IMG/VR virus record: IMGVR_UViG_3300023296_001674
DNA: 64,000 nucleotides
Reading direction: 5' to 3' (one strand)
From: a virus
Shown: positions 43,272 through 60,009 of the stretch, one piece after another
How positions within the stretch are numbered: position 1 is the first letter of the stretch
How the letters are laid out: each line of letters opens with the position of its first letter
Program-made: the position numbers and the translations under genes
The notes under the pieces: generated by a model
The model's input: the letters and a program-made list of their open reading frames with translations, nothing else
The model's database searches: none
Told to the model about the DNA's origin: nothing

Positions 43272-43300
43272 TTGACAAATTTTTTACTTGGGGGTATAGT
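43272..43300 (+). promoter_or_regulatory. promoter TTGACA-N17-TATAGT
   Basis: aagtgcTTGACAaattttttacttgggggTATAGT. Confidence 0.55.
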
Positions 43301-43305
43301 TAAGA

Positions 43306-43357
43306 TAGGGAGGGATGAGTGAAATTTAAAATCCAAAAAAAACTCATCCCTCCCTAC
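43306..43357 (+). repeat. perfect hairpin formed by both arms of the 26-bp GGGAGGGATGAGT element
   Basis: TAGGGAGGGATGAGT...ACTCATCCCTCCCTA with a 14-bp stem. Confidence 0.7.
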
Positions 43358-43456
43358 GGTCAGTTTAGCACGTATTGAAAAGATGGTCAAGTGTTTATTT
43401 CATTTTTTTGTATAATTGTGATATAGTGGGGCACTTATATAAGGAGTGAATAGAAA

Positions 43457-45156: not shown

Positions 45157-45161
45157 GGGCA

Positions 45162-47399: not shown

Positions 47400-47453
47400 C
47401 ATCGTCATAGATTGATGTATGATTGGTTCAGTTAAACATTGAAAGGAAATGTT

Positions 47454-48336: not shown

Positions 48337-48347
48337 AGGATAATATC

Positions 48348-48806
48348 ATGCCGAATTATTGCGAGAATGTTGTAACGATTAAACATCCAGACCCTTTGGT
48401 TATCGCTGGATTGGTTGAGGCATTTAATAACGGAAAATTCTTTCAATTCGTTGTGCCTATGGATAGTGATATTGACATGGATGCAAACTCCGAGAATGAT
48501 TCTTTGCCAAATTGGTATAATTGGCGGGTTGATAATTGGGGAACTAAGTGGGACATTGATCCCACCGATGGGAATGTTATGATTGAATCACCCATTGAAA
48601 TAAACCTTAGTTTTAATACCGCGTGGTCGCCACCCCTTGGTGTATATGCCAAATTGTCCGAGCAAGGGTTCACCGTTGATGCAAAGTATCATGAATATGG
48701 AATGATGTTCTATGGTACGTTTACCAACGACGAAGAAACATGCTCCAATTATGAATCGTTTGAAGAAATTCCTGCTGATATAATGGAAGATTTAGGGATT
48801 GCATAA
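48348..48806 (+). CDS. hypothetical protein
   Basis: ORF. Confidence 0.55.
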   Translation: MPNYCENVVTIKHPDPLVIAGLVEAFNNGKFFQFVVPMDSDIDMDANSENDSLPNWYNWRVDNWGTKWDIDPTDGNVMIESPIEINLSFNTAWSPPLGVYAKLSEQGFTVDAKYHEYGMMFYGTFTNDEETCSNYESFEEIPADIMEDLGIA

Positions 48807-48875
48807 TAACACTTGACACTGACATCAATTGTGCTAATATCTTGGTATAGTTAATCAATAGAAAGGAAATTCCAC

Positions 48876-49571
48876 ATGGGTTACACTCATTATTTCACAC
48901 AGAACCGCTCTATCACTGATTCAGAATGGGCGTTGTTATGTACAAACATTCGTGAAGTCATCAACGCGGTAAGTGATTCCATTCCGGTGCAATTCGAGTA
49001 TGATACCAATGAACCTGCGATGCTCGACGATCACATGATCCGGTTCAATGGCGTTGAAGATGACGGTCATGAAACATTTATTCTTGAGCGTGAAGGCGCT
49101 GGTTTTAGTTTTTGCAAAACCGCACGAAAACCATATGACACCGTTGTGACTGCATCATTGTTGATTGCACAAAAGGTTGCGCCGGGTGCATGGGATGTTA
49201 GTTCAGATGGCGACTCCGATGATTGGCATGGATTAGAATTGGCGACGCAAGTTATTGGTTTGAATTTTGCGGCGGAGTTTAAATCTGCACATCCGGGTGA
49301 AAATATTGATGACGATATTCCGTTACTTGGTGAAGCGCCATTCGTTGGTGGTAAAGTCATTTTCACATCAACGAGTGTATTTAATGATGCCAGCATTAAA
49401 ACCGAAGACGGTGGGATGGCTGTAATTCATGAAAGCAATGATGCATCCGTAACGGCTGAAGATGATTGTGTATTCGTTCGCCTACAGAGTTGGGATGACA
49501 CACGAGCACATCCAATGTTTAATTCTTTGTTTGGCAAGCGTATACGCATTACCGTAGAAGTGGAGGACTGA
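48876..49571 (+). CDS. hypothetical protein
   Basis: Promoter TTGACA-N16-TATCTT about 50 bp upstream; RBS GAAAGGAAA. Confidence 0.55.
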   Translation: MGYTHYFTQNRSITDSEWALLCTNIREVINAVSDSIPVQFEYDTNEPAMLDDHMIRFNGVEDDGHETFILEREGAGFSFCKTARKPYDTVVTASLLIAQKVAPGAWDVSSDGDSDDWHGLELATQVIGLNFAAEFKSAHPGENIDDDIPLLGEAPFVGGKVIFTSTSVFNDASIKTEDGGMAVIHESNDASVTAEDDCVFVRLQSWDDTRAHPMFNSLFGKRIRITVEVED

Positions 49572-49572
49572 T

Positions 49573-49986
49573 ATGGAACGCGTTAAAGTTGGTCAAGTGT
49601 ACATGGACAACGATAAACGTCTCCATGGTGCCAGAACGTTACAAGTAACACTGGTTTATTTGGTTGCGATGCCTGATTCCAAGAAAGGTAATTATGGTTG
49701 TGCGGCGGAATTCGCCGAGTGTGATGTGTATCTAAACGGCGAAGCAACCGGTAAGACTACAACAATTCACACAGCGCGGATGATGAAACCAACAAGCAAC
49801 GGTTATAAACTGTTGAACGTTCATGTATTGCCTAGACTTCAGCACGAACTTAAAGTTGCTGATCGATTGGCAAACACGGTATCGACGATGCTTGAACAAC
49901 CGACGGCGCAAATACAATACAGCATTCAGGATGTTAACAGAACACTGATTGAATATGGCAAAACCCGCGAATCAGTTTTTGCTTGA
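49573..49986 (+). CDS. hypothetical protein
   Basis: ORF. Confidence 0.5.
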   Translation: MERVKVGQVYMDNDKRLHGARTLQVTLVYLVAMPDSKKGNYGCAAEFAECDVYLNGEATGKTTTIHTARMMKPTSNGYKLLNVHVLPRLQHELKVADRLANTVSTMLEQPTAQIQYSIQDVNRTLIEYGKTRESVFA

Positions 49987-50041
49987 CAGATGCTGAAACT
50001 GTGTTATACTTATAACATACAATAATGAAAGGTTTTTGACG

Positions 50042-50281
50042 ATGGATTTATTTAGAATGATGATCACACCCGTGCATGCAGGTGCTGAAATCAAACGTAA
50101 CGAAGAGTTGGTTCTAAGCAAAGGCACGCCGGTTATCGCCGAAATCATTCATCAAGACAATGGTGTGTTCTGCATGCCAGTAGGTGGCAACGTAGGTTCG
50201 TGGATATGCGCATCTAAGTTGTTCCGACTAACAAGCCCCGAGGCACTGATTGCCAGTTGTAGTACGGGTGGGGATATCTAG
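50042..50281 (+). CDS. small hypothetical protein
   Basis: Promoter TTGACA-N17-TATACT at about 49984-50012. Confidence 0.45.
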   Translation: MDLFRMMITPVHAGAEIKRNEELVLSKGTPVIAEIIHQDNGVFCMPVGGNVGSWICASKLFRLTSPEALIASCSTGGDI

Positions 50282-50427
50282 AGCGATCATGATTTAACGC
50301 GTTTGTCACTATTACCAGCGATACGTATTTATACGTCACTCCTAACATAAACCAACAGTTTTTATCTAGTAAGTCTTAACGGATATCCCCCGTAATTTTT
50401 TATCAACCACAGAGGAGAATAAGACCC

Positions 50428-50520
50428 ATGGCAAAAGCAACTAAGACTTCAGCAGCACGACCCGTTCGTTCCCCGCGTATCTGTAAGCCAATCAAAAGCT
50501 CAACCACGCGACGCAAATAA
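50428..50520 (+). CDS. 30-aa highly basic peptide (MAKATKTSAARPVRSPRICKPIKSSTTRRK)
   Basis: Strong RBS AGAGGAGA 8 nt upstream; followed by a terminator. Confidence 0.45.
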   Translation: MAKATKTSAARPVRSPRICKPIKSSTTRRK

Positions 50521-50554
50521 CATGTTTGTTTTCTGATAATCACACGCATGTAAA

Positions 50555-50598
50555 GAAACCCCGTGCCGACCTTTGAAACCGGTTAACGGGGTTTTTTA
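50555..50598 (+). terminator. rho-independent terminator
   Basis: AACCCCGT...ACGGGGTT followed by TTTTT. Confidence 0.6.
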
Positions 50599-50602
50599 AT
50601 GC

Positions 50603-50631
50603 TTGACACTTATAGGGTGTTGTGGTATAGT
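50603..50631 (+). promoter_or_regulatory. promoter TTGACA-N17-TATAGT
   Basis: aatgcTTGACActtatagggtgttgtggTATAGT. Confidence 0.6.
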
Positions 50632-50637
50632 TATAAA

Positions 50638-50758
50638 GATTCACGAAAGTGAAGTTGTCGCACCCTTACCTGGATAGCCCCTTAAAAGGCGACACCTTAC
50701 TAGGCCGACAAGAAATAAAACCCGATATTGCTGCCCTGCATATCGGGTTTTATTTTGT
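50638..50758 (+). ncRNA. candidate small RNA (about 120 nt) bracketed by a promoter and an intrinsic terminator
   Basis: No RBS or ORF; internal GTCGC...GCGAC hairpin; terminator AAAACCCGATAT...ATATCGGGTTTT followed by ATTTT at 50717-50756. Confidence 0.45.
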
Positions 50759-50792
50759 CTGAATATATAACTAAACCAATTTAAAAAAAGAC

Positions 50793-50821
50793 TTGACGAC
50801 ATATAAAAATCTGTTATTATC
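50793..50821 (+). promoter_or_regulatory. promoter TTGACG-N16-TATTAT
   Basis: Upstream of 50858. Confidence 0.5.
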
Positions 50822-50857
50822 TGGTTATCAGAAAACAAACACATAAGGATTTATATC

Positions 50858-51658
50858 ATGGCTAAAGTTAAAGACCCAAACGGTTATGTAATTTATCGCG
50901 GCCCTTCAATGTTAGATGGTGCGCCTATTGTTATGGTGGCGACGGGGTTTGCAGATAAGAGTTTGAATAGCAAGACTGGTCATATGATACAGACTTGGAT
51001 TATTCGGGAAGACATCAATCCGCATGTAGCAACGAATTCAGGCGAGGATTCAAGTGTGTGTGGTGCATGCCCACACCGAGGCGACCTTAACCCTGACGTA
51101 GATTCGCCTACTGGTTTCAAGAACACTGGACGTTCATGTTACGTTAAAGTATGGCAAGCCCCGACTCATGTATGGCGTGCCTTTGAACGTGGTTCATATG
51201 ATGAAATTTCATTGTATGATATCCCTAATCTATTCAAGGACAAGGCTGTTCGGTTAGGTTCTTATGGCGACCCTGCGGCTGTTCCGTTTTGGCTAATCGA
51301 CGCGATTGGTCAATCTAGTGATTTCACAACAGGATATACCCACCAATGGCGTGATTGTGATCGTGATTATGGTAAGTGGCTTATGGCTAGTGCCGATAAT
51401 AACGCAGACCGGTTTTGGGCGCGTTCCTCTGGATTCAGAACGTTTCGTGTTCGCGGTGCTGACGACGCATTAGGCAAGAAAGAAATTGCGTGCCCTGCTA
51501 GTGAAGAGATGGGTAGAAAGACGAATTGCGCTGAGTGTAAAGCGTGCGGTGGACACAATGCCAAAGCAAACGTAGACATATCCATCATGACTCATGGTGC
51601 ATTAAAGAATAACTATTACAAGCGTGCCGACGCGTTTGAATACAGAAAGGCGGCATAA
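50858..51658 (+). CDS. hypothetical Cys-containing protein
   Basis: 266-aa ORF with RBS AAGGA. Confidence 0.6.
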   Translation: MAKVKDPNGYVIYRGPSMLDGAPIVMVATGFADKSLNSKTGHMIQTWIIREDINPHVATNSGEDSSVCGACPHRGDLNPDVDSPTGFKNTGRSCYVKVWQAPTHVWRAFERGSYDEISLYDIPNLFKDKAVRLGSYGDPAAVPFWLIDAIGQSSDFTTGYTHQWRDCDRDYGKWLMASADNNADRFWARSSGFRTFRVRGADDALGKKEIACPASEEMGRKTNCAECKACGGHNAKANVDISIMTHGALKNNYYKRADAFEYRKAA

Positions 51659-51659
51659 T

Positions 51660-51992
51660 ATGAAAAAACGTCCAATTGATATCAGGCGCGAAGGGCTTCA
51701 TACGCAAGACCCTGCTATAACCTTGAAACAATTATTCGATTCTACCGATGGTGGATTGTGGGATCATAAAGGTGTTACTGACGCATGGGTATCATATAAG
51801 GATTCCAAAGGTCAACTGTATGGTAGCCATAAGTGCGTCCATGAGGTATGTATCGAAGGACGTGAATACAAAGTATCGCAATCTGCATTACCTAATTGGG
51901 GAATTCATATTTTGTTTACGGATGAAGTATATAAACCAAAAATAAATTATGTGACGCAAATGCGTTCATTAAATTTATTCATTAACTGTTAA
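51660..51992 (+). CDS. hypothetical protein
   Basis: ATG at 51660 overlaps the upstream stop codon. Confidence 0.5.
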   Translation: MKKRPIDIRREGLHTQDPAITLKQLFDSTDGGLWDHKGVTDAWVSYKDSKGQLYGSHKCVHEVCIEGREYKVSQSALPNWGIHILFTDEVYKPKINYVTQMRSLNLFINC

Positions 51993-52005
51993 AAAGGAGA
52001 TTGAT

Positions 52006-52170
52006 ATGCAATTAGGCGATTCAGTTAAAGATTTAACCGGCGACTTCGAGTTGGGTGAAATTATTGATATATATACGAACCGTCACGGCGACCATCCGGT
52101 TATTATGTATACGGTCGATTTTGGCGATGATAATGTATTTGATCGATTGTTTCATGAAATAAGTGCTTGA
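52006..52170 (+). CDS. small acidic protein
   Basis: RBS AAAGGAGA; 54 aa. Confidence 0.45.
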   Translation: MQLGDSVKDLTGDFELGEIIDIYTNRHGDHPVIMYTVDFGDDNVFDRLFHEISA

Positions 52171-52194
52171 CTATTGGTTCAGTTATGTTAGATT
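52167..52194 (+). promoter_or_regulatory. promoter of the extended-consensus class AAGTGCTTGACTATTGGTTCAGTTATG
   Basis: TTGACT-N16-TAGATT. Confidence 0.55.
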
Positions 52195-52221
52195 AACTGT
52201 ATTGAAATGAAAGGAAACATT

Positions 52222-52404
52222 ATGGCTAAATCGATGTTTGAAGTTGAATGGATTTCGGAACAGGGTGGTGGACATACCATTTTGTCAGAAGAGGTTGCGG
52301 CGGAAGACGAAGGCGAGGCGATGGATGTTGCCTATGATGATTATTATTTCTTGAAATTAATATCTGTAAATCATTTATATGACATTGAAGGAGAAACGCC
52401 GTGA
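52222..52404 (+). CDS. small acidic protein
   Basis: Leader ATGAAAGGAAACATTATG. Confidence 0.5.
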   Translation: MAKSMFEVEWISEQGGGHTILSEEVAAEDEGEAMDVAYDDYYFLKLISVNHLYDIEGETP

Positions 52405-52568
52405 AAACCAAAAAGATATATGTTACGATTGCGGTAGAAGTTAAAGAAGACTTCAATATGCAGAAAGCGTATACTGAAATGACATACGCGTTGGATCATG
52501 ATGATATCGTCGGTACTGAAATCGTTGATGTTGAAACACAATTGAGTCGATATGGATGGGAGGACTGA
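52401..52568 (+). CDS. small protein (GTG start)
   Basis: RBS GAAGGAGA before GTG. Confidence 0.4.
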   Translation: MKTKKIYVTIAVEVKEDFNMQKAYTEMTYALDHDDIVGTEIVDVETQLSRYGWED

Positions 52569-52569
52569 T

Positions 52570-52980
52570 ATGCGCGGCACAAAACCATTAGCCCCTATGT
52601 CGAACTGGCACCGGTTGTTGACCATGTTGAGTTTGAATGGTGGATCATTATACCGAGCACAACTGTATACTGCCAAACCTAAGATCAAAAAATATGTTGA
52701 TCATGACGGCAATACCAAATATAAATCAATTCCAGCAAAAGACCTTCACACTTATATCGATACTGGCAAATTGCGCAAAGTGACTTGTGTATCATCATTT
52801 GCGCCATTGTCATATGCATATGAGCATCGGGCGGAAAGCATGGGATTGGTTCATATTAAAAAATTCAATAATCGCAAATGGATTACGTTGTTGCCAAAGG
52901 GACGTGCCGTGTTGGCGATGTTGGATGTTGGAAAGAAATGGGTTCCAGAAACGAAAATTGAAAGGGAGTTTATTCGATGA
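52570..52980 (+). CDS. hypothetical basic protein
   Basis: RBS GGGAGGA before ATG 52570. Confidence 0.55.
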   Translation: MRGTKPLAPMSNWHRLLTMLSLNGGSLYRAQLYTAKPKIKKYVDHDGNTKYKSIPAKDLHTYIDTGKLRKVTCVSSFAPLSYAYEHRAESMGLVHIKKFNNRKWITLLPKGRAVLAMLDVGKKWVPETKIEREFIR

Positions 52981-53231
52981 GTAATATCTTTACAGCGCCG
53001 TTAGGGCTTGTATACGAAATCGACGATCAGAACTATATCACTACTTCCGTGACTATGGACTTAAATGAGATCATCGATACCAACAACGAAGGGTTTCTTG
53101 ATGCATTATCTATCTATGCTACAGATACTGAATTGTTAATGGATATTGATTATAAACTTCTGCGCATTGACGAACATGGTGCACTAGTGTTTAGAGTCCA
53201 TGGCGATTTATCGGCGATCACAGATGACTGA
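52977..53231 (+). CDS. small acidic protein
   Basis: ATGA overlap. Confidence 0.5.
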   Translation: MSNIFTAPLGLVYEIDDQNYITTSVTMDLNEIIDTNNEGFLDALSIYATDTELLMDIDYKLLRIDEHGALVFRVHGDLSAITDD

Positions 53232-53424
53232 TAAACCAAAATCTAAACGGGGTCGAAAGAAAAAGGAACCGGAACCTCCTACCCCGACGAATTTGGTTCA
53301 TTGTACATTGATGGCATGCGGCATGGTTCATCTTGATCCAGCCAAGTGTCCCAAATGCGGCAATGATGATTCACAGCGCCCACTTAAGTTTGTAGGTGTT
53401 CCCATTTATATGACAATTGTTTAG
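53224..53424 (+). CDS. small basic zinc-ribbon protein (CPKCGND)
   Basis: ORF. Confidence 0.45.
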   Translation: MTDKPKSKRGRKKKEPEPPTPTNLVHCTLMACGMVHLDPAKCPKCGNDDSQRPLKFVGVPIYMTIV

Positions 53425-53433
53425 GAGTAGCAT

Positions 53434-53925
53434 ATGACTAAAATGATTTACACTGTAGTGCGCCGTCCCAAGGTTGGACGTCATGGGTTAACCACCATTG
53501 GGTGGGCGGAAGAATGTGGCAGAGAAGCGATTGTCACGGGTGGTTATTTACATACTCGACGCACGTTACCGGGGGAACAAACTTATTACACGGCAATCAT
53601 GACAAAAGCGAACTTTGATAGATGGCTCGGCGACAAATTTGAAACCCGTGCACAAGCCGCGTTCGCTATATGGCGTCTATATTATAAAAATGAGCGTGCG
53701 AAACGTGATCAAGATAAAGCGAATGAAGCGAATGGAAAACATGCACGTGCGGTCGGGCGGAAACATAAACGCGAACATCGTGCGACGCCTGAAGGACAAG
53801 AAGAACGCCGGTTGATGTTAAATCGTAAAGCAAAAGAAAAGCGTGATAACATGACGGATGAACAGCGCAAGGCGATCAATGATAAACTTAAGAAACGTCG
53901 TGCGCATAAGAAAGAATTCGGTTGA
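53434..53925 (+). CDS. basic Lys/Arg-rich protein (possibly nucleic-acid binding)
   Basis: 163 aa; RBS AGGAG. Confidence 0.55.
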   Translation: MTKMIYTVVRRPKVGRHGLTTIGWAEECGREAIVTGGYLHTRRTLPGEQTYYTAIMTKANFDRWLGDKFETRAQAAFAIWRLYYKNERAKRDQDKANEANGKHARAVGRKHKREHRATPEGQEERRLMLNRKAKEKRDNMTDEQRKAINDKLKKRRAHKKEFG

Positions 53926-53950
53926 CATTGTGGAAACACTTGTTATATTA
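53922..53950 (+). promoter_or_regulatory. dedicated promoter TTGACA-N17-ATATTA placing the transcription start at the tRNA 5' end
   Basis: ggTTGACAttgtggaaacacttgttATATTA; overlaps the upstream stop codon. Confidence 0.55.
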
Positions 53951-53958
53951 GTAACATC

Positions 53959-54032
53959 GGGGGCATAGCTCAGTGGTAGAGCAGTGGGTTCTAAACCCTT
54001 TGTCGGGAGTTCGACTCTCCCTGCCCTCGCCA
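53959..54032 (+). tRNA. tRNA with anticodon CUA (amber suppressor, tRNA-Sup); the backbone looks tRNA-Trp/Gln-like with G73 and an encoded CCA end
   Basis: Cloverleaf folded by hand: 7-bp acceptor stem, D arm GCTC/GAGC, anticodon loop TTCTAAA with U33 and A37, T arm GGGAG-TTCGACT-CTCCC, ends GCCA. Confidence 0.8.
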
Positions 54033-54052
54033 AATTTTGAAAGGATATAATC

Positions 54053-54529
54053 ATGTCGGCAATTACTGATTTTTACCAAGGGTTCGGAACTGATGATAAA
54101 GGACGCTCACTTGATGATTACTTATTGTTCTCAGATGAACAATTAGAATCGGTTCATGATTATATCCAGTGGATGTTTCCCAACACGGAAGTCAGCCGAT
54201 TTAATATCGATGCACCATTGCTTACAGATGCTGACATTGAATTGTTTATGAATGACATACCAATGATGAACAATGTAACGTTGGCGTGTGCACGCATGAC
54301 TAAATTTTATAAGTTTTCCAATATATATGTTGATGCAGAGAGACAATGGGTTACACAAGGCAATCATAATTTTTTACGACTTACTCGTATGTTGAAATTT
54401 CTTCGATCTATAAACAAAAATTATGAAGCAGAGTCGTTGTTTGTTATGCTTGCTAGAGTTTATTCAGATAATTCATTCGTGGTTGGCAAAGACACACTTC
54501 GGTATTGGTTGGACGCAGCAGAGAGTTAA
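54053..54529 (+). CDS. hypothetical protein
   Basis: RBS AAAGGA; 158 aa. Confidence 0.55.
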   Translation: MSAITDFYQGFGTDDKGRSLDDYLLFSDEQLESVHDYIQWMFPNTEVSRFNIDAPLLTDADIELFMNDIPMMNNVTLACARMTKFYKFSNIYVDAERQWVTQGNHNFLRLTRMLKFLRSINKNYEAESLFVMLARVYSDNSFVVGKDTLRYWLDAAES

Positions 54530-54536
54530 TGAAATG

Positions 54537-54707
54537 AAAAAATGGTTCAGATATAAACGATACACCAAATTTGAAAAAGGCAAACTAGTATTTGATGTTG
54601 GTTGGTCATTTTGGATTGGCAAGTTTCATATCCGTTATAACAAACAAAACAGTTATAGTGGATTGGGGTTTGAATGGTGGGGCGATGAACCTACATGGTT
54701 AGATTAA
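54537..54707 (+). CDS. small Trp-rich basic protein
   Basis: ORF. Confidence 0.4.
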   Translation, partial: KKWFRYKRYTKFEKGKLVFDVGWSFWIGKFHIRYNKQNSYSGLGFEWWGDEPTWLD

Positions 54708-54730
54708 AGCACCTTCGGGTGCTTTTTTTG
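54706..54730 (+). terminator. rho-independent terminator
   Basis: AAGCACC-TTCG-GGTGCTT followed by TTTTTT. Confidence 0.75.
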
Positions 54731-54763
54731 TCTTGACATATCGCTTGACACTGTTATTATACT

Positions 54764-54789
54764 GGTAGGGAGGGATGAGTTTTTTCTGG
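54764..54789 (+). repeat. 26-bp element GGTAGGGAGGGATGAGTTTTTTCTGG, left copy of an inverted pair
   Basis: Exact reverse complement of 59604-59629. Confidence 0.8.
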
Positions 54790-54813
54790 ATACATTATGA
54801 TAAAAATAAGTGC

Positions 54814-54841
54814 TTGACAATTGGTTCAGTTATGTTAGTAT
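54814..54841 (+). promoter_or_regulatory. extended-consensus promoter AAGTGCTTGACAATTGGTTCAGTTATGTTAGTAT
   Basis: TTGACA-N16-TAGTAT. Confidence 0.6.
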
Positions 54842-54866
54842 CATAATCAGAAAAGGGAGATGAAAA

Positions 54867-55031
54867 ATGATTGGATTCTTACTATACATTGTAGCATTAT
54901 TCATGTTATTGACTATACCATCTAATATATGGATTGTTCCATTATTGTTTGGTATGTTGTTTCATTGGAAAATGTGGTTGACTGGTATTGCTGCATTCTT
55001 TGTAGGAGCAGGGTTCAATAAAAACTTTTAA
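54867..55031 (+). CDS. small membrane protein (54 aa, two TM segments)
   Basis: RBS AAGGGAGA; hydrophobic. Confidence 0.5.
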   Translation: MIGFLLYIVALFMLLTIPSNIWIVPLLFGMLFHWKMWLTGIAAFFVGAGFNKNF

Positions 55032-55134
55032 CTGCATCAAAATAAATGCTTGACACGACGAAATAACCTGCTAATATCACTACATCAAACGACACTTACG
55101 GGCTTTTACTTAACACTAATAGGAGACTATCACC

Positions 55135-57321
55135 ATGCAAATCAAAACAGAAAATCGAGAAGTTGGGCGTTCCGGCACTTCAAACGAACGGACGTTTAAC
55201 ATCGATATGACTGCCAAGGCATTTAAGATTCTATCCGACGGATTGTATTCGGATAAAATTCTTGCTGTTGTTCGTGAACTTTCTTGTAATGCCAAGGATT
55301 CACATATCGACGCTGGCAAAAATGACGTGCCTTTCGAAATTCACCTACCGAATTCACTTGAGCCGTGGTTCGCGGTTACTGATTACGGACTTGGGTTATC
55401 ACCTGACGATGTATTGGAAATGTATTCCACTTATTTTGCTTCAACCAAAACGGGTTCAAACGATGTAACGGGGTGTCTTGGACTTGGTTCTAAATCGCCT
55501 TTTGCTTATACCGATTCGTTTTCAGTTGAAACACGTTGGAATGGCACACTTACTGTATTTTCATGTTTCTATAACGAGGCAGGTATCCCCTCAATCGTTA
55601 TTTTGGGTGACGAAGACGGAATGCCTACCGACGAAGTGAACGGCGTTACCGTTAAAATGGCTGTAAACGATGGTGACATGCGCGAATTCGCACAAAAGGC
55701 AATGAAGGCACTTGATCGCTTTGATCCTGCCCCTATCGTTACTGGTAACACTGATTATGAAATTGTTACTAAGACTTATACGGTTGAAGGCAAAGGCTGG
55801 AAGATGCTTGAACGTGAAAGTTCATATGGTGAAAGCAAAATCCATGCTATCCAAGGCAATGTAACATATCCAATTAGTTCACAATCATTAGGCGACTTGA
55901 CAAGCAATCAAGATGCAATTATGGGATTGACAGTTGATTTGTTCTTTGATATCGGCGAGTTGGACGTTGCGGCAAACCGCGAGGCGTTGGGTTATGATGA
56001 AGCAACGATTAAAAATATCAAGGCTAAACTTGATGCCGTATCGACTGAAATTGCCCCATTGTTTCAGGATAAATTTAAGGATTGTAAAACACTTTGGGAT
56101 GCGCGTTTGTTGTTCAAAGAAGTGATCAATCCTTTGACATCTGGCTTGCAACGGATTCTATCTGACAACAATGTTGGGTTGAAATGGAAAAAGCAATCAC
56201 TATCTGATTCGTTCAAATTGGATCGCGATGATTTTCCTAACGTTCAGATTGTATCATTCCAAAAGAATACACGCGGTGGACGTGGGCAAACTGCGGAATG
56301 GAGTTATAACGGTGATATTAAATTCCCCGCCAGTTCCGATATTCTGTTTTTCTATGACGATGTTGGCAATGGTTCGCATAGCCGAGTGACTCATTTTATG
56401 GAAACAAATGGTGACTCTGTTCGTTATCAGCATATGTTCAAAACCGACGATAAAAAAATGATGAAAAAGATTTCTAAGGCGTTGGGTAATGTTACTATTC
56501 AACCTGTAAGCAATCTTGAAAAACGCCCCAAGGCTGTTCGCCAAGCGCGACGAGTTACATCAAAGGTTTTGGAATATGTTGGACGCGCCCATGATCGCCG
56601 TGATAGTTGGAATCCTACTGATCTGGATTTAACGACTGGTGGTGTTTATGTTATGATTGATCGCTTTAAGGTATATGATTCCAATAATGGTTCAGGACGT
56701 GAACGTGAAGATTTTAACACCATTGTCGATTTGGCGAAAGAACATAAAATCGTTGACTTGACTAACAAGATCGTTTATGGAATTCGTAAAGGTGATGTTG
56801 ATAAATTGAAAGATGATTCTGGTTGGGTTAATCTTTTCGACCTGATCCGCGACAAACTTACGGTTGCGGTTAAAAAAGAAAAGGTGGCGCAAGTTATGGC
56901 TGACCGTTATGCCTATCACCAGTTTTCAAATGATTTATCATCGTTCGTTAATGATATGGATGATACTGATTTGGCAAAGGATTCAGTTATTGGAATATTC
57001 AAACGCGCACATGAATATCTTTCAAACCGTGATTCATCTAAGGCACAAGCGATTTCAAGTGTTGCGGATAGCGTAGGATTTACGTTAAAATCTGCCAAGC
57101 CAAAACACGATCTTGGGAAACTTTGGGACGCTGTTAAAAATAAGTATCCATTATTGAAACTTGTTTCTGACAGTGATTTGCGCGGCGGTTATTACAACAA
57201 TCGCGACAACTCTATCAGTGAAAATAACCATGCGGCATTGACTGATTATATCGCGATGGTTGACGCAAAAGACGCAGTGCCAGAAAAGCGTAAAATCCTT
57301 ACGTTGGCCTCGGCGGCATAA
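55135..57321 (+). CDS. rIIA: rIIA-like protein (N-terminal GHKL ATPase-like fold)
   Basis: KAFKILSDGLYSDKILAVVRELSCNAKDSH and GLGSKSPFAYTDSF match T4 rIIA; 728 aa. Confidence 0.85.
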   Translation: MQIKTENREVGRSGTSNERTFNIDMTAKAFKILSDGLYSDKILAVVRELSCNAKDSHIDAGKNDVPFEIHLPNSLEPWFAVTDYGLGLSPDDVLEMYSTYFASTKTGSNDVTGCLGLGSKSPFAYTDSFSVETRWNGTLTVFSCFYNEAGIPSIVILGDEDGMPTDEVNGVTVKMAVNDGDMREFAQKAMKALDRFDPAPIVTGNTDYEIVTKTYTVEGKGWKMLERESSYGESKIHAIQGNVTYPISSQSLGDLTSNQDAIMGLTVDLFFDIGELDVAANREALGYDEATIKNIKAKLDAVSTEIAPLFQDKFKDCKTLWDARLLFKEVINPLTSGLQRILSDNNVGLKWKKQSLSDSFKLDRDDFPNVQIVSFQKNTRGGRGQTAEWSYNGDIKFPASSDILFFYDDVGNGSHSRVTHFMETNGDSVRYQHMFKTDDKKMMKKISKALGNVTIQPVSNLEKRPKAVRQARRVTSKVLEYVGRAHDRRDSWNPTDLDLTTGGVYVMIDRFKVYDSNNGSGREREDFNTIVDLAKEHKIVDLTNKIVYGIRKGDVDKLKDDSGWVNLFDLIRDKLTVAVKKEKVAQVMADRYAYHQFSNDLSSFVNDMDDTDLAKDSVIGIFKRAHEYLSNRDSSKAQAISSVADSVGFTLKSAKPKHDLGKLWDAVKNKYPLLKLVSDSDLRGGYYNNRDNSISENNHAALTDYIAMVDAKDAVPEKRKILTLASAA

Positions 57322-57409
57322 GAAACTCCTACCTAGCCCGTAGGTGGCAGGGTTGAACGGTGATTGACTTCTTCTGTTTAATCCTGCCAAACTAATTTGA
57401 AATGAGTGC

Positions 57410-57438
57410 TTGACAATATAACAAATGGTGGTAATATT
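57410..57438 (+). promoter_or_regulatory. promoter TTGACA-N17-TAATAT
   Basis: gagtgcTTGACAatataacaaatggtggTAATAT. Confidence 0.55.
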
Positions 57439-57477
57439 CATTATCACATTCGGAAACCAACTAGGAGACTAAAACTT

Positions 57478-58629
57478 ATGAAAACGATTCAAGCCGCAAT
57501 TATCGCCCAAAATTCAATCACACTTATGATTGACGGGCAAACTACGCCTATCGCCTCTTCGCATACAAACTATGAAGAAATTCGTGGACTTGCTGCCGCT
57601 GGCAACTATGCACCAATTGCATCATTGCTTGATATGGTTCAGGTTATTAACGACTTTGGTAAAGGACGCGTTACCGTTGAAAACGGTGAAGTTCTTTATG
57701 ATGGTAAGCCTACCCATAACGCGGTGACTTCGCGTATCCTTCAAATGGTTGAAGAAGGTTTGGAAGTTTCACCAATGGTTGCATTCCTTGATAACCTTAT
57801 GGATAACCCTTCATTCCGTTCCGTTCAACAGTTATACGGTTTCTTGGAAGTGAACGACCTTCCGATCACGGAAGACGGTTTCTTTCTTGCCTATAAAATG
57901 TGCGCCGAGGTTAATGGTAAATTGACTGATATTCGCACGCAAACGTTTGATTATAGCGTTGGCGCAAAACCTGCCGAAATGCCACGTAACGAAGTGAACG
58001 AAGACCCTGATCAAACTTGTTCTTCTGGTTTGCACGTATGCGCCCAAGGTTATCTTGGTTCATACAGTTCTGGCGAACATACGATTTTGGTTAAAGTTAA
58101 TCCTGCCGATGTTGTTGCAGTTCCGACTGACTACAATAACGCCAAAATGCGGGTAAGCAAACATGAAACCGTTTGTAAGGTTACTGCGCGAACTCGCGGT
58201 GCTGTATATACCAGTGCGGTTTATACCCCTTCGGCGGATTCAAAAAGCACACTGGTAAATGGCGATGATTTGCTTACGCTGGATGAAGCAGTTGACGTTC
58301 TTGGGCTTAAGGGTGCTAAAAATCCAATTGCCGCACTACGTAAGCGCCTATCGCGTGCAAAGCTGACTTCTAACCCTAAACTCAAGTCGGTTTTCAAAGA
58401 TGGTGTTGAAATGATTCAAATCATCCAAACGGAGGCCGACGATGTTGAAGTTGCTGACGATTCGGTTATGACTCACGTTGATGCAATCGCATACTTTGCC
58501 AAGCAAAACAAAGCCAATGGCAAGGCACAACCAGCCGACCCGAAAGCGGCATTGCGTAAAATGCTTAATCGTGAATCTGCTTGCAAGCGCGTTTACGTTG
58601 ATGGTGTTGAGATGATCAAAATTCTTTAA
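57478..58629 (+). CDS. rIIB: rIIB-like protein
   Basis: FLDNLMDNPSFRSVQQLYGFLEVNDLPITEDGFFLAYK and QTCSSGLHVC...VKVNPADVVAVPTDYNNAKMR match T4 rIIB. Confidence 0.85.
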   Translation: MKTIQAAIIAQNSITLMIDGQTTPIASSHTNYEEIRGLAAAGNYAPIASLLDMVQVINDFGKGRVTVENGEVLYDGKPTHNAVTSRILQMVEEGLEVSPMVAFLDNLMDNPSFRSVQQLYGFLEVNDLPITEDGFFLAYKMCAEVNGKLTDIRTQTFDYSVGAKPAEMPRNEVNEDPDQTCSSGLHVCAQGYLGSYSSGEHTILVKVNPADVVAVPTDYNNAKMRVSKHETVCKVTARTRGAVYTSAVYTPSADSKSTLVNGDDLLTLDEAVDVLGLKGAKNPIAALRKRLSRAKLTSNPKLKSVFKDGVEMIQIIQTEADDVEVADDSVMTHVDAIAYFAKQNKANGKAQPADPKAALRKMLNRESACKRVYVDGVEMIKIL

Positions 58630-58652
58630 CCCGAATGTGATATAGGGTAAAT

Positions 58653-58690
58653 AAAAGGGGGTTGGTAGAAATGCCAGCCCCTTTTTTATC
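58653..58690 (+). terminator. rho-independent terminator after rIIB
   Basis: GGGGGTTGG...CCAGCCCC followed by TTTTTT. Confidence 0.65.
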
Positions 58691-58704
58691 ATAAAGGAGT
58701 CGTT

Positions 58705-58890
58705 ATGACATATTACAGTGATTATCCAAGTGTTCCAATTGGCGGGAGCAATCCTTATTATAAGTGTTCATATTGTGGCATATCTGATCCACAAATCAAT
58801 GGCACCCTTGAAGGGCATTATGAAGATTGTGAATATCGTATCATCAAAGAATTGGAACTACGCATCAAAGAATTAGAAGCAAACCCATAG
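58705..58890 (+). CDS. small Cys-containing protein
   Basis: RBS AAAGGAG. Confidence 0.5.
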   Translation: MTYYSDYPSVPIGGSNPYYKCSYCGISDPQINGTLEGHYEDCEYRIIKELELRIKELEANP

Positions 58891-58897
58891 CGTTCGA

Positions 58898-58921
58898 CCC
58901 ATAGGTGCTATGGGTTTTTTG
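58898..58921 (+). terminator. terminator hairpin CCCATAG-GTG-CTATGGG followed by TTTTTT
   Basis: Same hairpin motif as the repeats at 42411-42510. Confidence 0.6.
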
Positions 58922-58945
58922 CTATAGAACCTATAGAAATAGTTC

Positions 58946-58973
58946 TTGACAATTGGTTCAGTTAGTCTATAAT
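58946..58973 (+). promoter_or_regulatory. promoter TTGACA-N16-TATAAT
   Basis: tTTGACAattggttcagttagtcTATAAT. Confidence 0.6.
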
Positions 58974-59004
58974 ACCTTTATAACTTAAACGAAGGGAAAT
59001 ACAA

Positions 59005-59541
59005 ATGGGCGCACAATTAAACACGATGGAAGTAGACGGTAAAGCATCACGTGAAGAAGTGGTGATGCAATTCAACACCCGTTGCGAACAAGATGGATAT
59101 GAAATGGGTCATTCTTATTCAGGTTCGTTTTCGCAGTTTGCTGGTTTATCATTTACCAATAAACATTTTTATACCGAACAGGAAGCCTACGATTACATTG
59201 ATGTGAATGGTGAAAAATGGGGACCGGCGGTTGCTGTTAAGTATACTGCGATTGAACCATCCAAGCGACTGATCGCGCACAACAAAGCAATCATGGCATT
59301 GAGTCAAAAAATTCATGATGCGAGATATAAATTGCGCAACGCAAATGAAAAAATGCGTATCAACAATCGCAAAGATAAACCAGCGTATGTGGTTAAAGCG
59401 GAAGCGGCATTTGAACGGGTGAAAAAATCTATTGAACCCAAGATTGCAGACCGAAAACTACAACGCAATAAAACCGAGACGACGCTCGCCGCGAAATCGA
59501 AAGACGTTCGCTGGTTGATGGGCGGTTGGTGTTCCTCTTAA
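59005..59541 (+). CDS. hypothetical protein
   Basis: RBS GAAGGGAAA; 178 aa. Confidence 0.55.
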   Translation: MGAQLNTMEVDGKASREEVVMQFNTRCEQDGYEMGHSYSGSFSQFAGLSFTNKHFYTEQEAYDYIDVNGEKWGPAVAVKYTAIEPSKRLIAHNKAIMALSQKIHDARYKLRNANEKMRINNRKDKPAYVVKAEAAFERVKKSIEPKIADRKLQRNKTETTLAAKSKDVRWLMGGWCSS

Positions 59542-59561
59542 ACTTTAAATAAAATTCAGAA

Positions 59562-59590
59562 AATGTCAAGAGAAATCTTGACATTTTTTG
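59562..59590 (+). terminator. terminator: 10-bp palindromic stem AATGTCAAGA / TCTTGACATT with a GAAA loop, followed by TTTT
   Basis: Seen directly in the sequence. Confidence 0.65.
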
Positions 59591-59603
59591 TTATATTATT
59601 ATT

Positions 59604-59629
59604 CCAGAAAAAACTCATCCCTCCCTACC
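59604..59629 (+). repeat. 26-bp element, right copy (inverted relative to the left copy)
   Basis: CCAGAAAAAACTCATCCCTCCCTACC. Confidence 0.8.
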
Positions 59630-59727
59630 ATAAGAATACCATATTCAACATATAAGTCAAGCATTTATTTGCACTTGACATAAAAATAAATACGGTTATA
59701 ATGGTAGTTCAATTAAAAGGAGATGAT

Positions 59728-59958
59728 ATGACTATTAAAACAAAAGGATTACTTATAACCTTTCTATATGTTATGTTGGGGTTAGTTTCATATATGATGA
59801 TAGGCGACTTTACAGTGTTCGCTTGGATTGATCCTTGGGTATATATATACATGGCATTGTGGCCTTTGATTTGGGCATGGACATTCATCAAGTGGGCTGC
59901 GATCATTGCGGTGATTGTAATTGTTGGTATTATTGCCCATGAAAAATGGAGTAAATAA
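59728..59958 (+). CDS. small membrane protein (2-3 TM segments)
   Basis: RBS AAAGGAGA; Trp-rich and hydrophobic. Confidence 0.5.
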   Translation: MTIKTKGLLITFLYVMLGLVSYMMIGDFTVFAWIDPWVYIYMALWPLIWAWTFIKWAAIIAVIVIVGIIAHEKWSK

Positions 59959-59973
59959 GTTCAAAATAAGTGC

Positions 59974-60009
59974 TTGACTCTTGGTGCACTTAGTTCTATG
60001 GTGCACCAA
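59974..60009 (+). promoter_or_regulatory. promoter TTGACT-N17-TATGGT carrying the palindromic operator TTGGTGCAC-N11-GTGCACCAA
   Basis: Inverted repeat overlaps the -10 region. Confidence 0.55.

What the first reader, a model, noticed from the sequence alone, without database searches (positions are those of the whole stretch)
54764..59629. Perfect 26-bp inverted repeats bracketing the rIIA-rIIB cassette, with a third hairpin copy
GGTAGGGAGGGATGAGTTTTTTCTGG at 54764-54789 is the exact reverse complement of 59604-59629, about 4.8 kb away. Together they enclose a promoter, a small membrane protein, rIIA, rIIB and two more genes. At 43306-43357 both arms occur back-to-back as a perfect 14-bp-stem hairpin just downstream of a promoter. 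Each copy lies in a terminator-element-promoter context. Possibilities are an operator for a regulator acting at three early transcription units, or sites for a site-specific or homologous inversion of the rII segment.
Basis: seen in the sequence. Interest (0 to 1): 0.6.

Follow-up and report, generated by a model that had tools for sequence, protein, structure and literature searches.

The report
Face-to-face promoter modules flanking rII
The 26-base inverted repeat around the rIIA-rIIB genes is real, but it is best read as two copies of a conserved promoter-plus-leader module of an uncultured marine megaphage pointing at each other, not as a DNA inversion switch; what the invariant leader sequence does is still open.

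Summary
GGTAGGGAGGGATGAGTTTTTTCTGG (54764-54789) is the exact reverse complement of 59604-59629. At 43306-43356 two 15-nt arms form a hairpin with a 21-nt loop.

The repeat is not free-standing. Each of the four copies sits 5 nt + Y downstream of a sigma70-type -10 hexamer on its own strand, so the predicted transcript starts at the A of AGGGAGGGAUG.

The window belongs to a 570-kb megaphage contig. In 293 kb from it and about 15 related contigs, 24 of 25 distinct AGGGAGGGAT sites keep this register. The spacers are unrelated, and conservation jumps to 2 bits exactly at +1.

The rII cassette has the same orientation in 10 lineages and in an independent assembly of the same phage. No neighbouring gene product has a recombinase Pfam hit on record. 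The left copy is absent or degenerate in four lineages and altered in two more; the right copy is absent in two. The 26-nt identity is specific to this phage (15 and 12 nt in its two closest relatives). Inversion is therefore not supported.

The "hairpin" is a face-to-face promoter pair with start sites 48 nt apart, and a relative keeps that spacing.

The best mechanistic guess (about 0.35) is a 5'-terminal super-Shine-Dalgarno leader that protects the RNA 5' end. An operator or an effect on RNA polymerase itself remain live rivals.

The parts
54706..54725 (+). Intrinsic-terminator-like hairpin (AAAGCACCTTCGGGTGCTTT followed by a T run) that ends the upstream unit and abuts the -35 of the left module
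   Evidence: sequence
54733..54760 (+). P1(+): sigma70-type promoter of the left module (TTGACA-16-TATTAT, TG-extended)
   Evidence: 11 of 12 matches; same architecture in relatives
54764..54789 (+). Left arm of the 26-nt inverted repeat. The invariant core AGGGAGGGATG is 54767-54777, and the predicted transcript start is A54767.
54814..54841 (+). P2(+): second, ordinary early promoter in tandem (TTGACA-16-TAGTAT) in front of the small membrane-protein gene
   Evidence: conserved in L042 and L043
54867..59541 (+). The rII cassette: 54-aa hydrophobic protein (54867-55031), rIIA (55135-57321), rIIB (57478-58629), 61-aa ORF (58705-58890) and a conserved 178-aa protein (59005-59541). It has internal promoters at 55050, 57410 and 58946.
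59542..59569 (-). P2'(-): minus-strand promoter-like site (TTGACA-16-TAAAGT). Its -35 lies inside the terminator hairpin and it points into the 3' end of the 178-aa gene. By my reading a TTGAC/TTGCC -35 plus a TA...T -10 is kept at this spot in 9 of the 10 lineages examined; in L042 only the -35 is convincing.
   Evidence: sequences; scan
59557..59590 (.). Hairpin that closes the cassette. It is a terminator on the plus strand (T run follows); on the minus strand it is weaker.
59604..59629 (-). Right arm of the 26-nt inverted repeat. The core is 59626 down to 59616, and the predicted transcript start is at 59626 on the minus strand.
59633..59660 (-). P1'(-): promoter of the right module (TTGACT-16-TATTCT, TG-extended). 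It is convergent with the cassette and back-to-back with the next plus-strand promoter.
   Evidence: orthologous promoters in L042, L043, L046, L062-L065
59675..59702 (+). Ordinary promoter (TTGACA-16-TATAAT, 12 of 12) of the next gene, divergent from P1'(-)
43272..43300 (+). P1(+) of the face-to-face pair (TTGACA-17-TATAGT)
43306..43320 (+). Plus-strand copy of the element (5' arm of the hairpin). The predicted start is A43307.
43342..43356 (-). Minus-strand copy of the element (3' arm of the hairpin). The predicted start is 43355, which is 48 nt from the plus-strand start.
43362..43390 (-). P1(-) of the face-to-face pair (TTGACC-17-TAAACT, TG-extended)
   Evidence: the orthologous pair in L072 (7900 and 7948) has the same 48-nt spacing

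Best explanation
WHAT IT IS (confidence about 0.85-0.9). The repeat is the initially transcribed part of a conserved promoter module. The module reads: -35 TTGAC(T/A), a 16-17 nt spacer of no fixed sequence, -10 TAYTAT (often TG-extended), 5 nt, a pyrimidine, then AGGGAGGGAU(G), usually followed by AGY and a run of T.

The window holds four such modules. One fires rightwards into the rII cassette (54.7 kb). One fires leftwards from just behind the cassette's terminator (59.6 kb). Two fire into each other at 43.3 kb. The 26-nt inverted repeat exists because two modules lie on opposite strands. Its perfection is a lineage-specific homogenisation of copies within this genome.

HOW IT WORKS (inferred, about 0.35). 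Transcripts from these promoters begin with pppAGGGAGGGAUG, an unusually strong Shine-Dalgarno mimic next to an AUG at the very 5' end. I propose that it captures a 30S subunit. In the face-to-face pairs it is instead locked into a 5'-terminal hairpin of about -26 kcal/mol. Either way the RNA 5' end is shielded from 5'-end-dependent decay, so this subset of early and antisense transcripts would be long-lived.

SHOWN: sequence, register, conservation, absence of inversion, and complementarity to a canonical anti-SD tail.
INFERRED: promoter activity, the exact start site, ribosome binding and stabilisation.

The single confidence value given (0.4) blends the well-supported identification with the weakly supported mechanism.
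For: Register. All four window copies lie 5 nt + Y after a -10 hexamer on their own strand. In 293 kb of the window and related contigs, 24 of 25 distinct AGGGAGGGAT sites are in that exact register, whereas about 0.1% of positions satisfy the promoter pattern.

Promoter-like conservation. The hexamers and the spacer length are conserved but the spacer sequence is not.

Conservation boundary. Information content is 0.6-1.2 bits at -6 to -1, then 1.7-2.0 bits from +1 to +11. This is higher than in the -10 hexamer itself. The search that gathered the set constrained only YAGGG.

Depth of conservation. The module is kept in lineages whose rIIA is only 46-73% identical.

SD mimicry. The element pairs with a canonical 16S 3' tail at -13.6 kcal/mol. 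The 31 real ribosome-binding sites nearby average -7.0, and the best is -11.5. The one strongly altered copy (L065, AGGGGGUGAU) pairs better still, at -16.3 kcal/mol over 10 contiguous pairs.

No alternative RNA identity. There is no conserved RNA fold beyond the hairpins and no Rfam family.

The face-to-face pairs give 5'-terminal hairpins of -23 to -28 kcal/mol in two phages.

Precedents. SD-like 5' stabilisers are listed as references in PMC3997798: STAB-SD (Agaisse and Lereclus 1996) and the SP82 phage polypurine stabiliser (Hue et al. 1995). Their content is cited from my own knowledge.
Against: - Nothing here was measured: there are no transcript ends, half-lives or ribosome-binding data.
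- The host and its 16S tail are unknown.
- Pairing with the anti-SD does not require ten invariant nucleotides. Real SDs in this phage vary freely, so the invariance points to a more specific partner.
- GGAGG is only 1 nt from the AUG, which is too close for normal initiation. The AUG is replaced by AUU or AUC in two copies.
- Several modules face no ORF and drive antisense transcription, which a simple mRNA stabiliser does not explain.
- Most modules are followed 35-90 nt later by a second promoter, and this model gives no reason for that.
Confidence: 0.4

Rival explanations
1. DNA operator. A phage-encoded, sequence-specific DNA-binding protein sits on AGGGAGGGATG at +1 to +14 and switches this promoter subclass off (or on) as infection proceeds. 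A candidate is the 79-aa DpnI_C-type winged-helix protein encoded just downstream of the face-to-face pair. The palindromic 43.3-kb arrangement would then be its autoregulatory site.
For: The element overlaps the start site of four promoters. The face-to-face pair lies upstream of a small winged-helix gene both in the window (43666-43905; Pfam DpnI_C, E = 8e-8) and in the relative L072 (pair at 7900/7948, gene at 8234-8473).
Against: - The site is not dyad-symmetric.
- Its register to the -10 is exact in 24 of 25 copies. Conservation starts precisely at +1 rather than being centred on a binding site.
- The core is invariant across phages whose proteins are about 50% identical. A phage protein and its site would be expected to drift together.
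- The winged-helix protein has only one detectable homologue in the protein database, while the element occurs in at least 12 lineages. That search has low sensitivity for such a short protein.
Confidence: 0.2
2. Initial-transcribed-sequence effect on RNA polymerase itself. The G-rich +1 to +8 followed by a U run tunes promoter escape, or causes a programmed promoter-proximal pause, or loads a processivity or antitermination factor. An R-loop or primer is another possibility. The partner would be the host polymerase, perhaps together with a phage factor.
For: The register to the -10 is exact and conservation begins at +1. Invariance across divergent phages fits a slowly evolving host partner. 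A U run follows in most copies. Several modules are followed by a hairpin or terminator and then a second promoter. Purine-rich initial sequences favouring escape at strong phage promoters is from my own knowledge.
Against: Known escape effects are degenerate and would not demand ten invariant bases. No -10-like pause hexamer is evident in the element (my reading of the sequence). No conserved RNA stem-loop of the nut or put type was found.
Confidence: 0.15
3. RNA-RNA pairing. The G-rich 5' end is the seed of small or antisense RNAs. One version is the unit behind the cassette acting like lambda OOP on the 3' end of the 178-aa gene. Another is the 5' leader of the rII transcript pairing with read-through RNA at 59.6 kb to form a 26-bp duplex, giving an RNase III-type processing stem around the operon.
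For: A plus-strand RNA reading through 59604-59629 would be perfectly complementary to the first 23 nt of the P1(+) leader. A convergent module behind the 178-aa gene is present in 8 of 10 lineages. A second minus-strand promoter inside the terminator is recognisable in 9 of those 10 by my reading.
Against: Complementarity between the two arms is not maintained. It is 15 nt in L042 and 12 nt in L043, and one arm is missing in L062, L063, L076 and L077. No other CAUCCCUCCCU target exists in the window. The minus-strand hairpin is not followed by a consistent U tract, so a discrete small RNA is not assured.
Confidence: 0.1
4. Recombination sites. The 26-bp inverted repeats mediate site-specific or homologous inversion of the 4.8-kb rII segment.
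For: A perfect 26-nt inverted repeat is far beyond chance and long enough for phage homologous recombination. The copies within this genome are more alike than orthologous copies are between genomes: all four share ATGAGT. This suggests gene conversion between copies.
Against: - The cassette has one orientation relative to both flanks in 10 lineages.
- An independent assembly of the same phage is 100% identical and collinear over 18,866 nt.
- No recombinase Pfam hit is on record for the neighbouring gene products.
- The arms have no internal dyad symmetry.
- Either arm can be absent.
- The repeated unit is a promoter.
Confidence: 0.03
5. Mini-ORF. The AUG at +9 opens a very short translated leader (MSFF...), a minigene or arrest-type peptide.
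For: Among the 17 canonical copies, the variable positions after the AUG fall at +14, +17 and +20, which are third codon positions. Many copies read M-S-F-F/L-W, and three read MSFF-stop. PTH2-type peptidyl-tRNA hydrolase genes lie nearby in relatives.
Against: The SD-AUG spacing is about 1 nt. L043(+) shifts the frame through a longer T run. Two copies have AUU or AUC instead of AUG. The peptides are unrelated after residue 5. The periodicity rests on four variable sites (about p = 0.05 by my count).
Confidence: 0.05

Closest known systems
PeSL (promoter-early stem-loop) cassettes of T4-type phages (Arbiol et al. 2010, PMC2839356; Comeau et al. 2014, PMC4122927)
   Same: Both are repeated intergenic cassettes of roughly 60-100 bp built around a strong sigma70-type early promoter. 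They often abut a terminator hairpin and are scattered among small ORFan genes next to conserved modules. They are similar enough between copies to allow homologous exchange, and here the copies within one genome look homogenised.
   Different: PeSLs are defined by the promoter plus a G...C stem-loop, and they end in the SD and ATG of the next gene. Here the conserved hallmark is an invariant 10-11 nt at +1 with no obligatory stem-loop. Many copies point away from any gene or face each other. No indel or mini-circle evidence was obtained.
SD-like 5' mRNA stabilisers: STAB-SD of cryIIIA (Agaisse and Lereclus 1996) and the polypurine stabiliser of phage SP82 early RNA (Hue, Cohen and Bechhofer 1995). 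Both are listed as references in PMC3997798; their content is from my own knowledge.
   Same: Both are polypurine, ribosome-binding-site-like sequences close to the RNA 5' end that do not serve the downstream ORF. The SP82 case is also in phage early RNA. The complementarity to the 16S tail is strong.
   Different: Those elements are single, degenerate sequences in Bacillus systems with RNase J. Here ten nucleotides are invariant, begin at +1, are hard-wired to a promoter subclass and are repeated across a phage clade whose host is unknown. The function is untested.
Face-to-face promoter switches of P2-like phages (coliphage 186 pR/pL, P2 Pe/Pc); from my own knowledge
   Same: The 43.3-kb locus is a pair of convergent sigma70-type promoters with start sites a few tens of nucleotides apart (48 nt). 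A relative conserves the spacing, and the pair lies next to a small helix-turn-helix gene.
   Different: Here both promoters carry the same initial sequence, so each RNA folds into a 5' hairpin. The leftward promoter faces no gene. No repressor sites or lysogeny functions are evident.
Lambda OOP antisense RNA; from my own knowledge
   Same: A promoter placed just behind a gene and convergent with it could make an RNA antisense to that gene's 3' end. This matches the right-hand module plus P2' behind the 178-aa gene.
   Different: No defined short RNA with its own terminator is evident, and no RNase III evidence exists. The G-rich 5' motif has no counterpart in OOP.
Hin/Gin/Cin-type invertible segments; from my own knowledge
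   Same: Short inverted repeats (also about 26 bp) bracket a few kb of DNA.
   Different: There is no adjacent recombinase and no dyad symmetry in the sites. Only one orientation is seen in all genomes, and the repeats are promoter leaders.

Membership tests
PeSL-type mobile promoter cassette | Strong sigma70-like early promoter with conserved -35 and -10 | tested here: met
   This is by sequence only; promoter activity was not measured.
PeSL-type mobile promoter cassette | A stem-loop (typically GGGG...CCCC) that is part of the motif and acts as terminator or attenuator | tested here: inconclusive
   A terminator hairpin abuts the -35 in sense-oriented copies (54706-54725; folding energies of -17 to -30 kcal/mol upstream of several copies). 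Most antisense copies have none (-1 to -9 kcal/mol).
PeSL-type mobile promoter cassette | The cassette ends in the SD and start codon of the downstream ORF(an) | tested here: not met
   The SD-like core sits at +1. The real gene start is about 100 nt further on, behind a second promoter, or there is no gene at all.
PeSL-type mobile promoter cassette | Recombination between copies (indel boundaries, mini-circles) | not testable with these tools
   There is only indirect evidence. Copies within a genome resemble each other more than orthologues do, and modules are gained or lost between lineages.
SD-like 5' stabiliser (STAB-SD / SP82 polypurine) | Polypurine sequence complementary to the 3' end of 16S rRNA | tested here: met
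   The duplex with a canonical tail is -13.6 kcal/mol, against a mean of -7.0 for 31 real sites. The host rRNA is unknown.
SD-like 5' stabiliser (STAB-SD / SP82 polypurine) | Located at or near the RNA 5' end and not used to start the downstream ORF | tested here: inconclusive
   The position at +1 is inferred from the -10 spacing. No conserved ORF follows. The 5' ends were not mapped.
SD-like 5' stabiliser (STAB-SD / SP82 polypurine) | Increases the half-life of the downstream RNA through ribosome binding | not testable with these tools
   This needs half-life and toeprint experiments.
Site-specific invertible segment (Hin/Gin/Cin, shufflon) | Inverted repeats bracketing the segment | tested here: met
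Site-specific invertible segment (Hin/Gin/Cin, shufflon) | Recombinase gene adjacent to or inside the segment | tested here: not met
   Precomputed Pfam hits for the called genes from 45 to 67 kb show no resolvase, invertase or integrase. PHROGs and Pfam scans of the cassette and flanking ORFs show none either. Window ORFs below 45 kb were not scanned systematically.
Site-specific invertible segment (Hin/Gin/Cin, shufflon) | Both orientations present in populations or relatives | tested here: not met
   There is one orientation in 10 lineages and in an independent assembly. Raw reads were not examined.
nut/put-type antitermination RNA | Conserved stem-loop(s) in the nascent RNA downstream of an early promoter | tested here: not met
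   RNAalifold finds no supported structure in either set of orthologous leaders. There is no Rfam hit.
Face-to-face promoter switch (186 / P2 type) | Two convergent promoters whose transcripts overlap by tens of nucleotides | tested here: met
   43272-43300 (+) and 43390-43362 (-) give a start-to-start distance of 48 nt. L072 has the same 48 nt, and L054 has 58 nt. This is by sequence only.
Face-to-face promoter switch (186 / P2 type) | Repressor or antirepressor genes on either side, with operators at the promoters | tested here: inconclusive
   A winged-helix gene lies to the right. There is no gene for the leftward promoter, and no binding data exist.

The most novel reading that the evidence does not exclude
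pppAGGGAGGGAU is a clade-wide 5'-terminal RNA tag, written into the DNA at +1 of a dedicated promoter subclass of uncultured marine megaphages. A specific, highly conserved partner would read it: the ribosome in a non-initiating mode, a CsrA-like protein, or RNA polymerase together with a phage factor. The tag would mark a small set of sense and antisense transcripts for a common fate. The face-to-face and cassette-flanking arrangements would be functional switches or insulators rather than by-products. This would be a new kind of phage transcript-marking system.
Probability: 0.15. Interest if true: 0.7.

Novelty: new variant of a known kind. Interest (0 to 1): 0.42.

Why it matters
Gene regulation in megaphages of more than 500 kb is essentially uncharted, because none of this clade is cultured. 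This work identifies two promoter classes and a hard-wired, invariant leader. It also identifies a conserved convergent promoter behind the rII cassette and a conserved face-to-face promoter pair. Together these give concrete, synthesisable parts that can be tested in vitro with sigma70 polymerase and ribosomes, and searched for in metatranscriptomes.

The result also removes a tempting but unsupported idea, phase-variable inversion of rII. More generally, it shows that long perfect inverted repeats in phage early regions can simply be promoter modules on opposite strands.

Tried and rejected
- DNA similarity to 50,697 deposited phages found nothing at either sensitivity. The rIIA protein reaches only about 30% identity there.
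- IMG/VR scans with the 15-mer gave 40 unrelated chance hits, none with the extended motif. The consensus 18-mer and an rIIA-based scan found nothing.
- The genome-collection scan gave six unrelated MAG hits that looked like chance.
- The metagenome scan did not return the 570-kb contig, so a genome-wide census of copies was not possible. It did yield 10 loci carrying the module, representing about seven distinct units.
- Rfam on the whole window found only a tRNA.
- Consensus folding of orthologous leaders found no structure.
- A literature search for the motif string found only unrelated eukaryotic hits.
- More distant rIIA relatives (38-40% identity, L074 and L075) lack both the 178-aa gene and the element within 20 kb. 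Co-variation of the core with phylogeny therefore could not be studied.
- I considered and dropped several other readings. A G-quadruplex fails because there are only two G3 tracts. A T7-type single-subunit polymerase promoter fails because conservation follows sigma70 -35/-10 geometry. A boxA-like NusB/E site fails because the C is not conserved in the window's copies.

Full report
OBSERVATION

GGTAGGGAGGGATGAGTTTTTTCTGG at 54764-54789 is the exact reverse complement of 59604-59629. At 43306-43320 and 43342-43356 the 15-mer TAGGGAGGGATGAGT and its complement are separated by 21 nt.

The 15-mer has exactly four sites in the 64 kb, even allowing three mismatches. No shuffle of 100 reached four. 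About 2e-6 perfect 26-nt inverted pairs are expected by chance. As RNA, the 43.3-kb sequence folds at -26.5 kcal/mol with z = -6.2.

The repeat finder extends the rII-flanking repeat to 78 nt at 74%. That was the first hint that more than the 26-mer is shared.

WHAT SURROUNDS EACH COPY

Each copy lies downstream of a sigma70-type promoter on its own strand, in the same register:
- TTGACA-16-TATTAT-actgg-T-AGGG at 54733(+).
- TTGACT-16-TATTCT-tatgg-T-AGGG at 59660(-).
- TTGACA-17-TATAGT-taaga-T-AGGG at 43272(+).
- TTGACC-17-TAAACT-gaccg-T-AGGG at 43390(-).

Several things follow:
It is the start of a leftward unit that is convergent with the rII cassette and back-to-back with the next gene's promoter.
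- The "hairpin" at 43.3 kb is two promoters firing into each other, with predicted start sites 48 nt apart.
- With the usual 7-nt distance from the -10, the transcripts would begin at the A of AGGGAGGGAUG. This is an inference; no RNA data exist.

WHERE THE WINDOW COMES FROM

There is no DNA match to deposited phages. The rIIA protein is 100% identical to one found on a 570,750-bp metagenomic contig, so the window is part of a megaphage. Relatives at 73% down to 46% identity occur on marine metagenome contigs.

A pattern scan of JGI metagenomes and look-ups of homologues of rIIA, of the 178-aa protein and of the winged-helix protein brought in further related contigs.

THE MODULE IS A CONSERVED FAMILY

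Across the window and these loci (293 kb) there are 25 distinct AGGGAGGGAT sites. Of these, 24 are in the exact promoter register, where only 0.1% of positions qualify by chance.

The alignment of units shows the signature of real promoters. The -35 and -10 hexamers are conserved, the spacer length is fixed at 16-17 nt, and the spacer sequences are unrelated.

Information content is 0.6-1.2 bits at -6 to -1 and rises to 1.7-2.0 bits from +1 to +11. It stays at 1.0-1.7 bits to +19 (AGY TTTTT) and then decays. The search that collected the set fixed only YAGGG, so the invariance of +5 to +11 is not an artefact of selection.

Variants are rare:
- AGGGGGTGATG in L065.
- AGGGAGGGATT in L054.
- AGGGAGGGATC in L077.
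- A decayed copy in L064.

Most units are followed 35-90 nt later by a second, ordinary promoter in the same direction. Ordinary promoters of this phage instead run straight into an SD and ATG about 25 nt downstream.

THE INVERSION IDEA

Ten lineages carry the cassette: small membrane protein, rIIA, rIIB, variable small genes, then the 178-aa protein. In all of them it has the same orientation relative to upstream and downstream genes.

A second assembly of the same phage from another sample is identical and collinear over 18,866 nt, including both arms. The called gene products around the cassette carry no recombinase Pfam hit on record.

The two arms are not a constant pair:
- The right (antisense) module is present in 8 of 10 lineages and absent in L076 and L077.
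- The left module has the exact core only in the window, L042 and L043. It is altered in L065 and L077, decayed in L064, and absent in L062, L063 and L076. The L046 contig does not reach the left flank.
- Where both exist, the perfectly shared stretch is 26 nt in this phage, but 15 nt in L042 and 12 nt in L043.

The perfect 26-mer is therefore lineage-specific. All four window copies share ATGAGT, whereas relatives have AGC, ACT, ATC and others. This looks like homogenisation of copies within a genome. It implies occasional recombination between copies, but not a maintained inversion switch.

THE FACE-TO-FACE PAIR

The 43.3-kb locus is orthologous to L072 7900/7948 in the relative whose rIIA is 70% identical. 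That locus has the same two promoters and the same 48-nt start-to-start distance. A third module lies 220 nt away. A further pair with 58-nt spacing occurs in L054.

In both the window and L072, a small DpnI_C-type winged-helix gene lies downstream. This keeps an operator or autoregulation reading alive.

HOW IT MIGHT WORK

Three facts constrain the mechanism:
- The register to the -10 is exact.
- Conservation begins at the predicted first transcribed nucleotide.
- The core is invariant across phages whose proteins have diverged to about 50% identity.

Together they favour a role that depends on the transcript's 5' end or on the initiating polymerase, and a partner that evolves slowly, that is, a host component. 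They argue less for a phage repressor and its site.

The core is an exceptionally strong SD mimic. Its duplex with a canonical 16S tail is -13.6 kcal/mol, against a mean of -7.0 and a best of -11.5 for 31 real sites nearby. The only strongly altered copy pairs even better, at -16.3 kcal/mol. In the face-to-face pairs the same nucleotides are locked into a 5'-terminal hairpin.

Both a bound 30S subunit and a terminal hairpin are classical ways of protecting a bacterial RNA 5' end. SD-like 5' stabilisers are known, including one in phage SP82 early RNA (references in PMC3997798; details from my own knowledge). I therefore rank 5'-end protection by ribosome capture first, at about 0.35.

Its weak points are these:
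- SD pairing does not need ten invariant bases.
- GGAGG is only 1 nt from the AUG.
- Two copies lack the AUG.
- Many modules drive antisense or geneless transcription.

The rivals are as follows:
- A DNA operator (0.2).
- A direct effect of the initial transcribed sequence on polymerase escape, pausing or factor loading (0.15).
- A seed or antisense RNA role, including a 5'-3' duplex around the operon (0.1). The lack of maintained complementarity weakens this one.
- A translated mini-ORF, MSFF... (0.05). It is suggested by third-position variation at +14, +17 and +20, but a frame shift in L043 and the non-AUG copies contradict it.
- Inversion (0.03).

No conserved RNA structure, Rfam family or literature record of the motif was found.

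COMPARISON WITH KNOWN SYSTEMS

The closest described thing at the genome level is the PeSL cassette of T4-type phages. PeSLs are repeated early-promoter and stem-loop units among ORFans that mediate exchange (PMC2839356, PMC4122927).

The present module shares the promoter, the frequent upstream terminator and the repetition. It fails the PeSL definition in two respects. It has no obligatory stem-loop, and it does not end in the SD and ATG of a downstream gene. Its hallmark, an invariant leader at +1, is not a PeSL feature.

At the RNA level it resembles STAB-SD and SP82-type stabilisers, but their defining activity was not tested. The 43.3-kb pair resembles the face-to-face promoters of P2 and 186-like phages. 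The unit behind the cassette resembles lambda OOP in placement only.

I class it as a new variant of a known kind: a phage early-promoter cassette with a hard-wired leader.

VERDICT

Identification as a conserved promoter-leader module has a confidence of about 0.85-0.9. The specific mechanism has a confidence of about 0.35. Interest is moderate (0.42). It is not the rII inversion switch that was hoped for. It is an unusually rigid and testable regulatory motif in an uncultured megaphage clade.

Noticed in passing
window 40430-40880: There is a dense array of about 20 copies of the palindromic unit CTCACAGTGTGAT, spaced 20-21 nt apart. It lies just after a DUF723 / zinc-ribbon protein gene (39161-40261). 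It also sits at the strand-switch point, where cumulative GC skew reaches its minimum (about 38-40 kb). The relative L072 has a different palindromic array (TGTTCCTTAATAAGGGAACA, 7 copies, 4533-4773) at the same place. This looks like iterons of an origin, partition or regulator-binding site.
   Followed up: partly
window 42387-42531 and 58896-58953; L072 6661-7028: There are tandem arrays of the unit CATAGGTGCTATGGGTTT(TTT), with a gapped run of such units spanning about 370 nt in L072. They lie about 0.8 kb upstream of the face-to-face promoter pair. The same unit serves as the terminator hairpin after the 61-aa gene inside the rII cassette. The function of the array is unknown.
   Followed up: partly
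window 59542-59569 (-) and orthologous positions in L043, L046, L062-L065, L076, L077: A second minus-strand promoter-like site has its -35 (TTGAC or TTGCC) inside the cassette's terminator hairpin and a TGnTAGGNT-type -10 just past the stop codon. It points antisense into the 178-aa gene. By my reading it is kept in 9 of the 10 lineages, including the two that lack the AGGGAGGG module. In L042 only the -35 is convincing.
   Followed up: partly
window 59005-59541: The 178-aa protein is the same length (178 aa) in nearly all of its roughly 38 full-length homologues, which are 47-64% identical. It has no Pfam or PDB sequence match. The AlphaFold model (pLDDT 90) shows a small beta-sheet domain carrying a helical hairpin about 80 residues long. 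The tip of that hairpin is invariant (N120 N121 R122 ... P126 . Y128 V129). The architecture recalls coiled-coil factors such as DksA or prefoldin only generically. It occurs only in the clade that has the module.
   Followed up: partly
window 19282-19303 (-), 19458-19479 (-), 41363-41384 (+): There are three copies of TATAAGTGTGGCACAGTTATGA, 22 nt and identical, each ending in the ATG of a gene at a gene junction and without an obvious SD. This is another repeated junction or leader motif that also shows up as long perfect inverted repeats.
   Followed up: partly
window 53959-54029: A tRNA gene (Rfam score 65 bits) lies directly behind a promoter at 53922, upstream of the rII region. Relatives carry tRNA-like sequence at the corresponding place immediately upstream of the small membrane-protein gene. 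In this phage a 158-aa OGFr_N-domain gene is inserted between them.
   Followed up: no
window 43666-43905; L072 8234-8473 and 10001-10240: Small 79-aa proteins with a DpnI_C (Dam-replacing) winged-helix domain are encoded downstream of the face-to-face promoter pair. Only one homologue was detectable in the 5.8-billion-protein database.
   Followed up: partly
L062 19859-20386, L064 12449-12940, L076 10885-11379, L074 18090-18515, L075 14324-14797: PTH2-type peptidyl-tRNA hydrolase genes recur a few kb downstream of the rII cassette in relatives. The corresponding part of this phage lies beyond the window's end.
   Followed up: no
window 14235-16051 and 34606-35517: There are large diverged direct repeats of 221 nt (4 copies) and 147 nt (4 copies), apparently within coding sequence. 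Short TGTGGTTGTGGT-type sub-repeats accompany the first set. They were not examined.
   Followed up: no
window 28127-39109 (-) versus 43261-59991 (+): Ordinary promoters form two strand-specific families with extended shared sequence. The first is CTTGAC...TATACTGT on the minus strand to the left of about 39 kb. The second is AAATAAGTGCTTGACA on the plus strand to the right. This indicates divergent early transcription from the 39-41 kb region.
   Followed up: no
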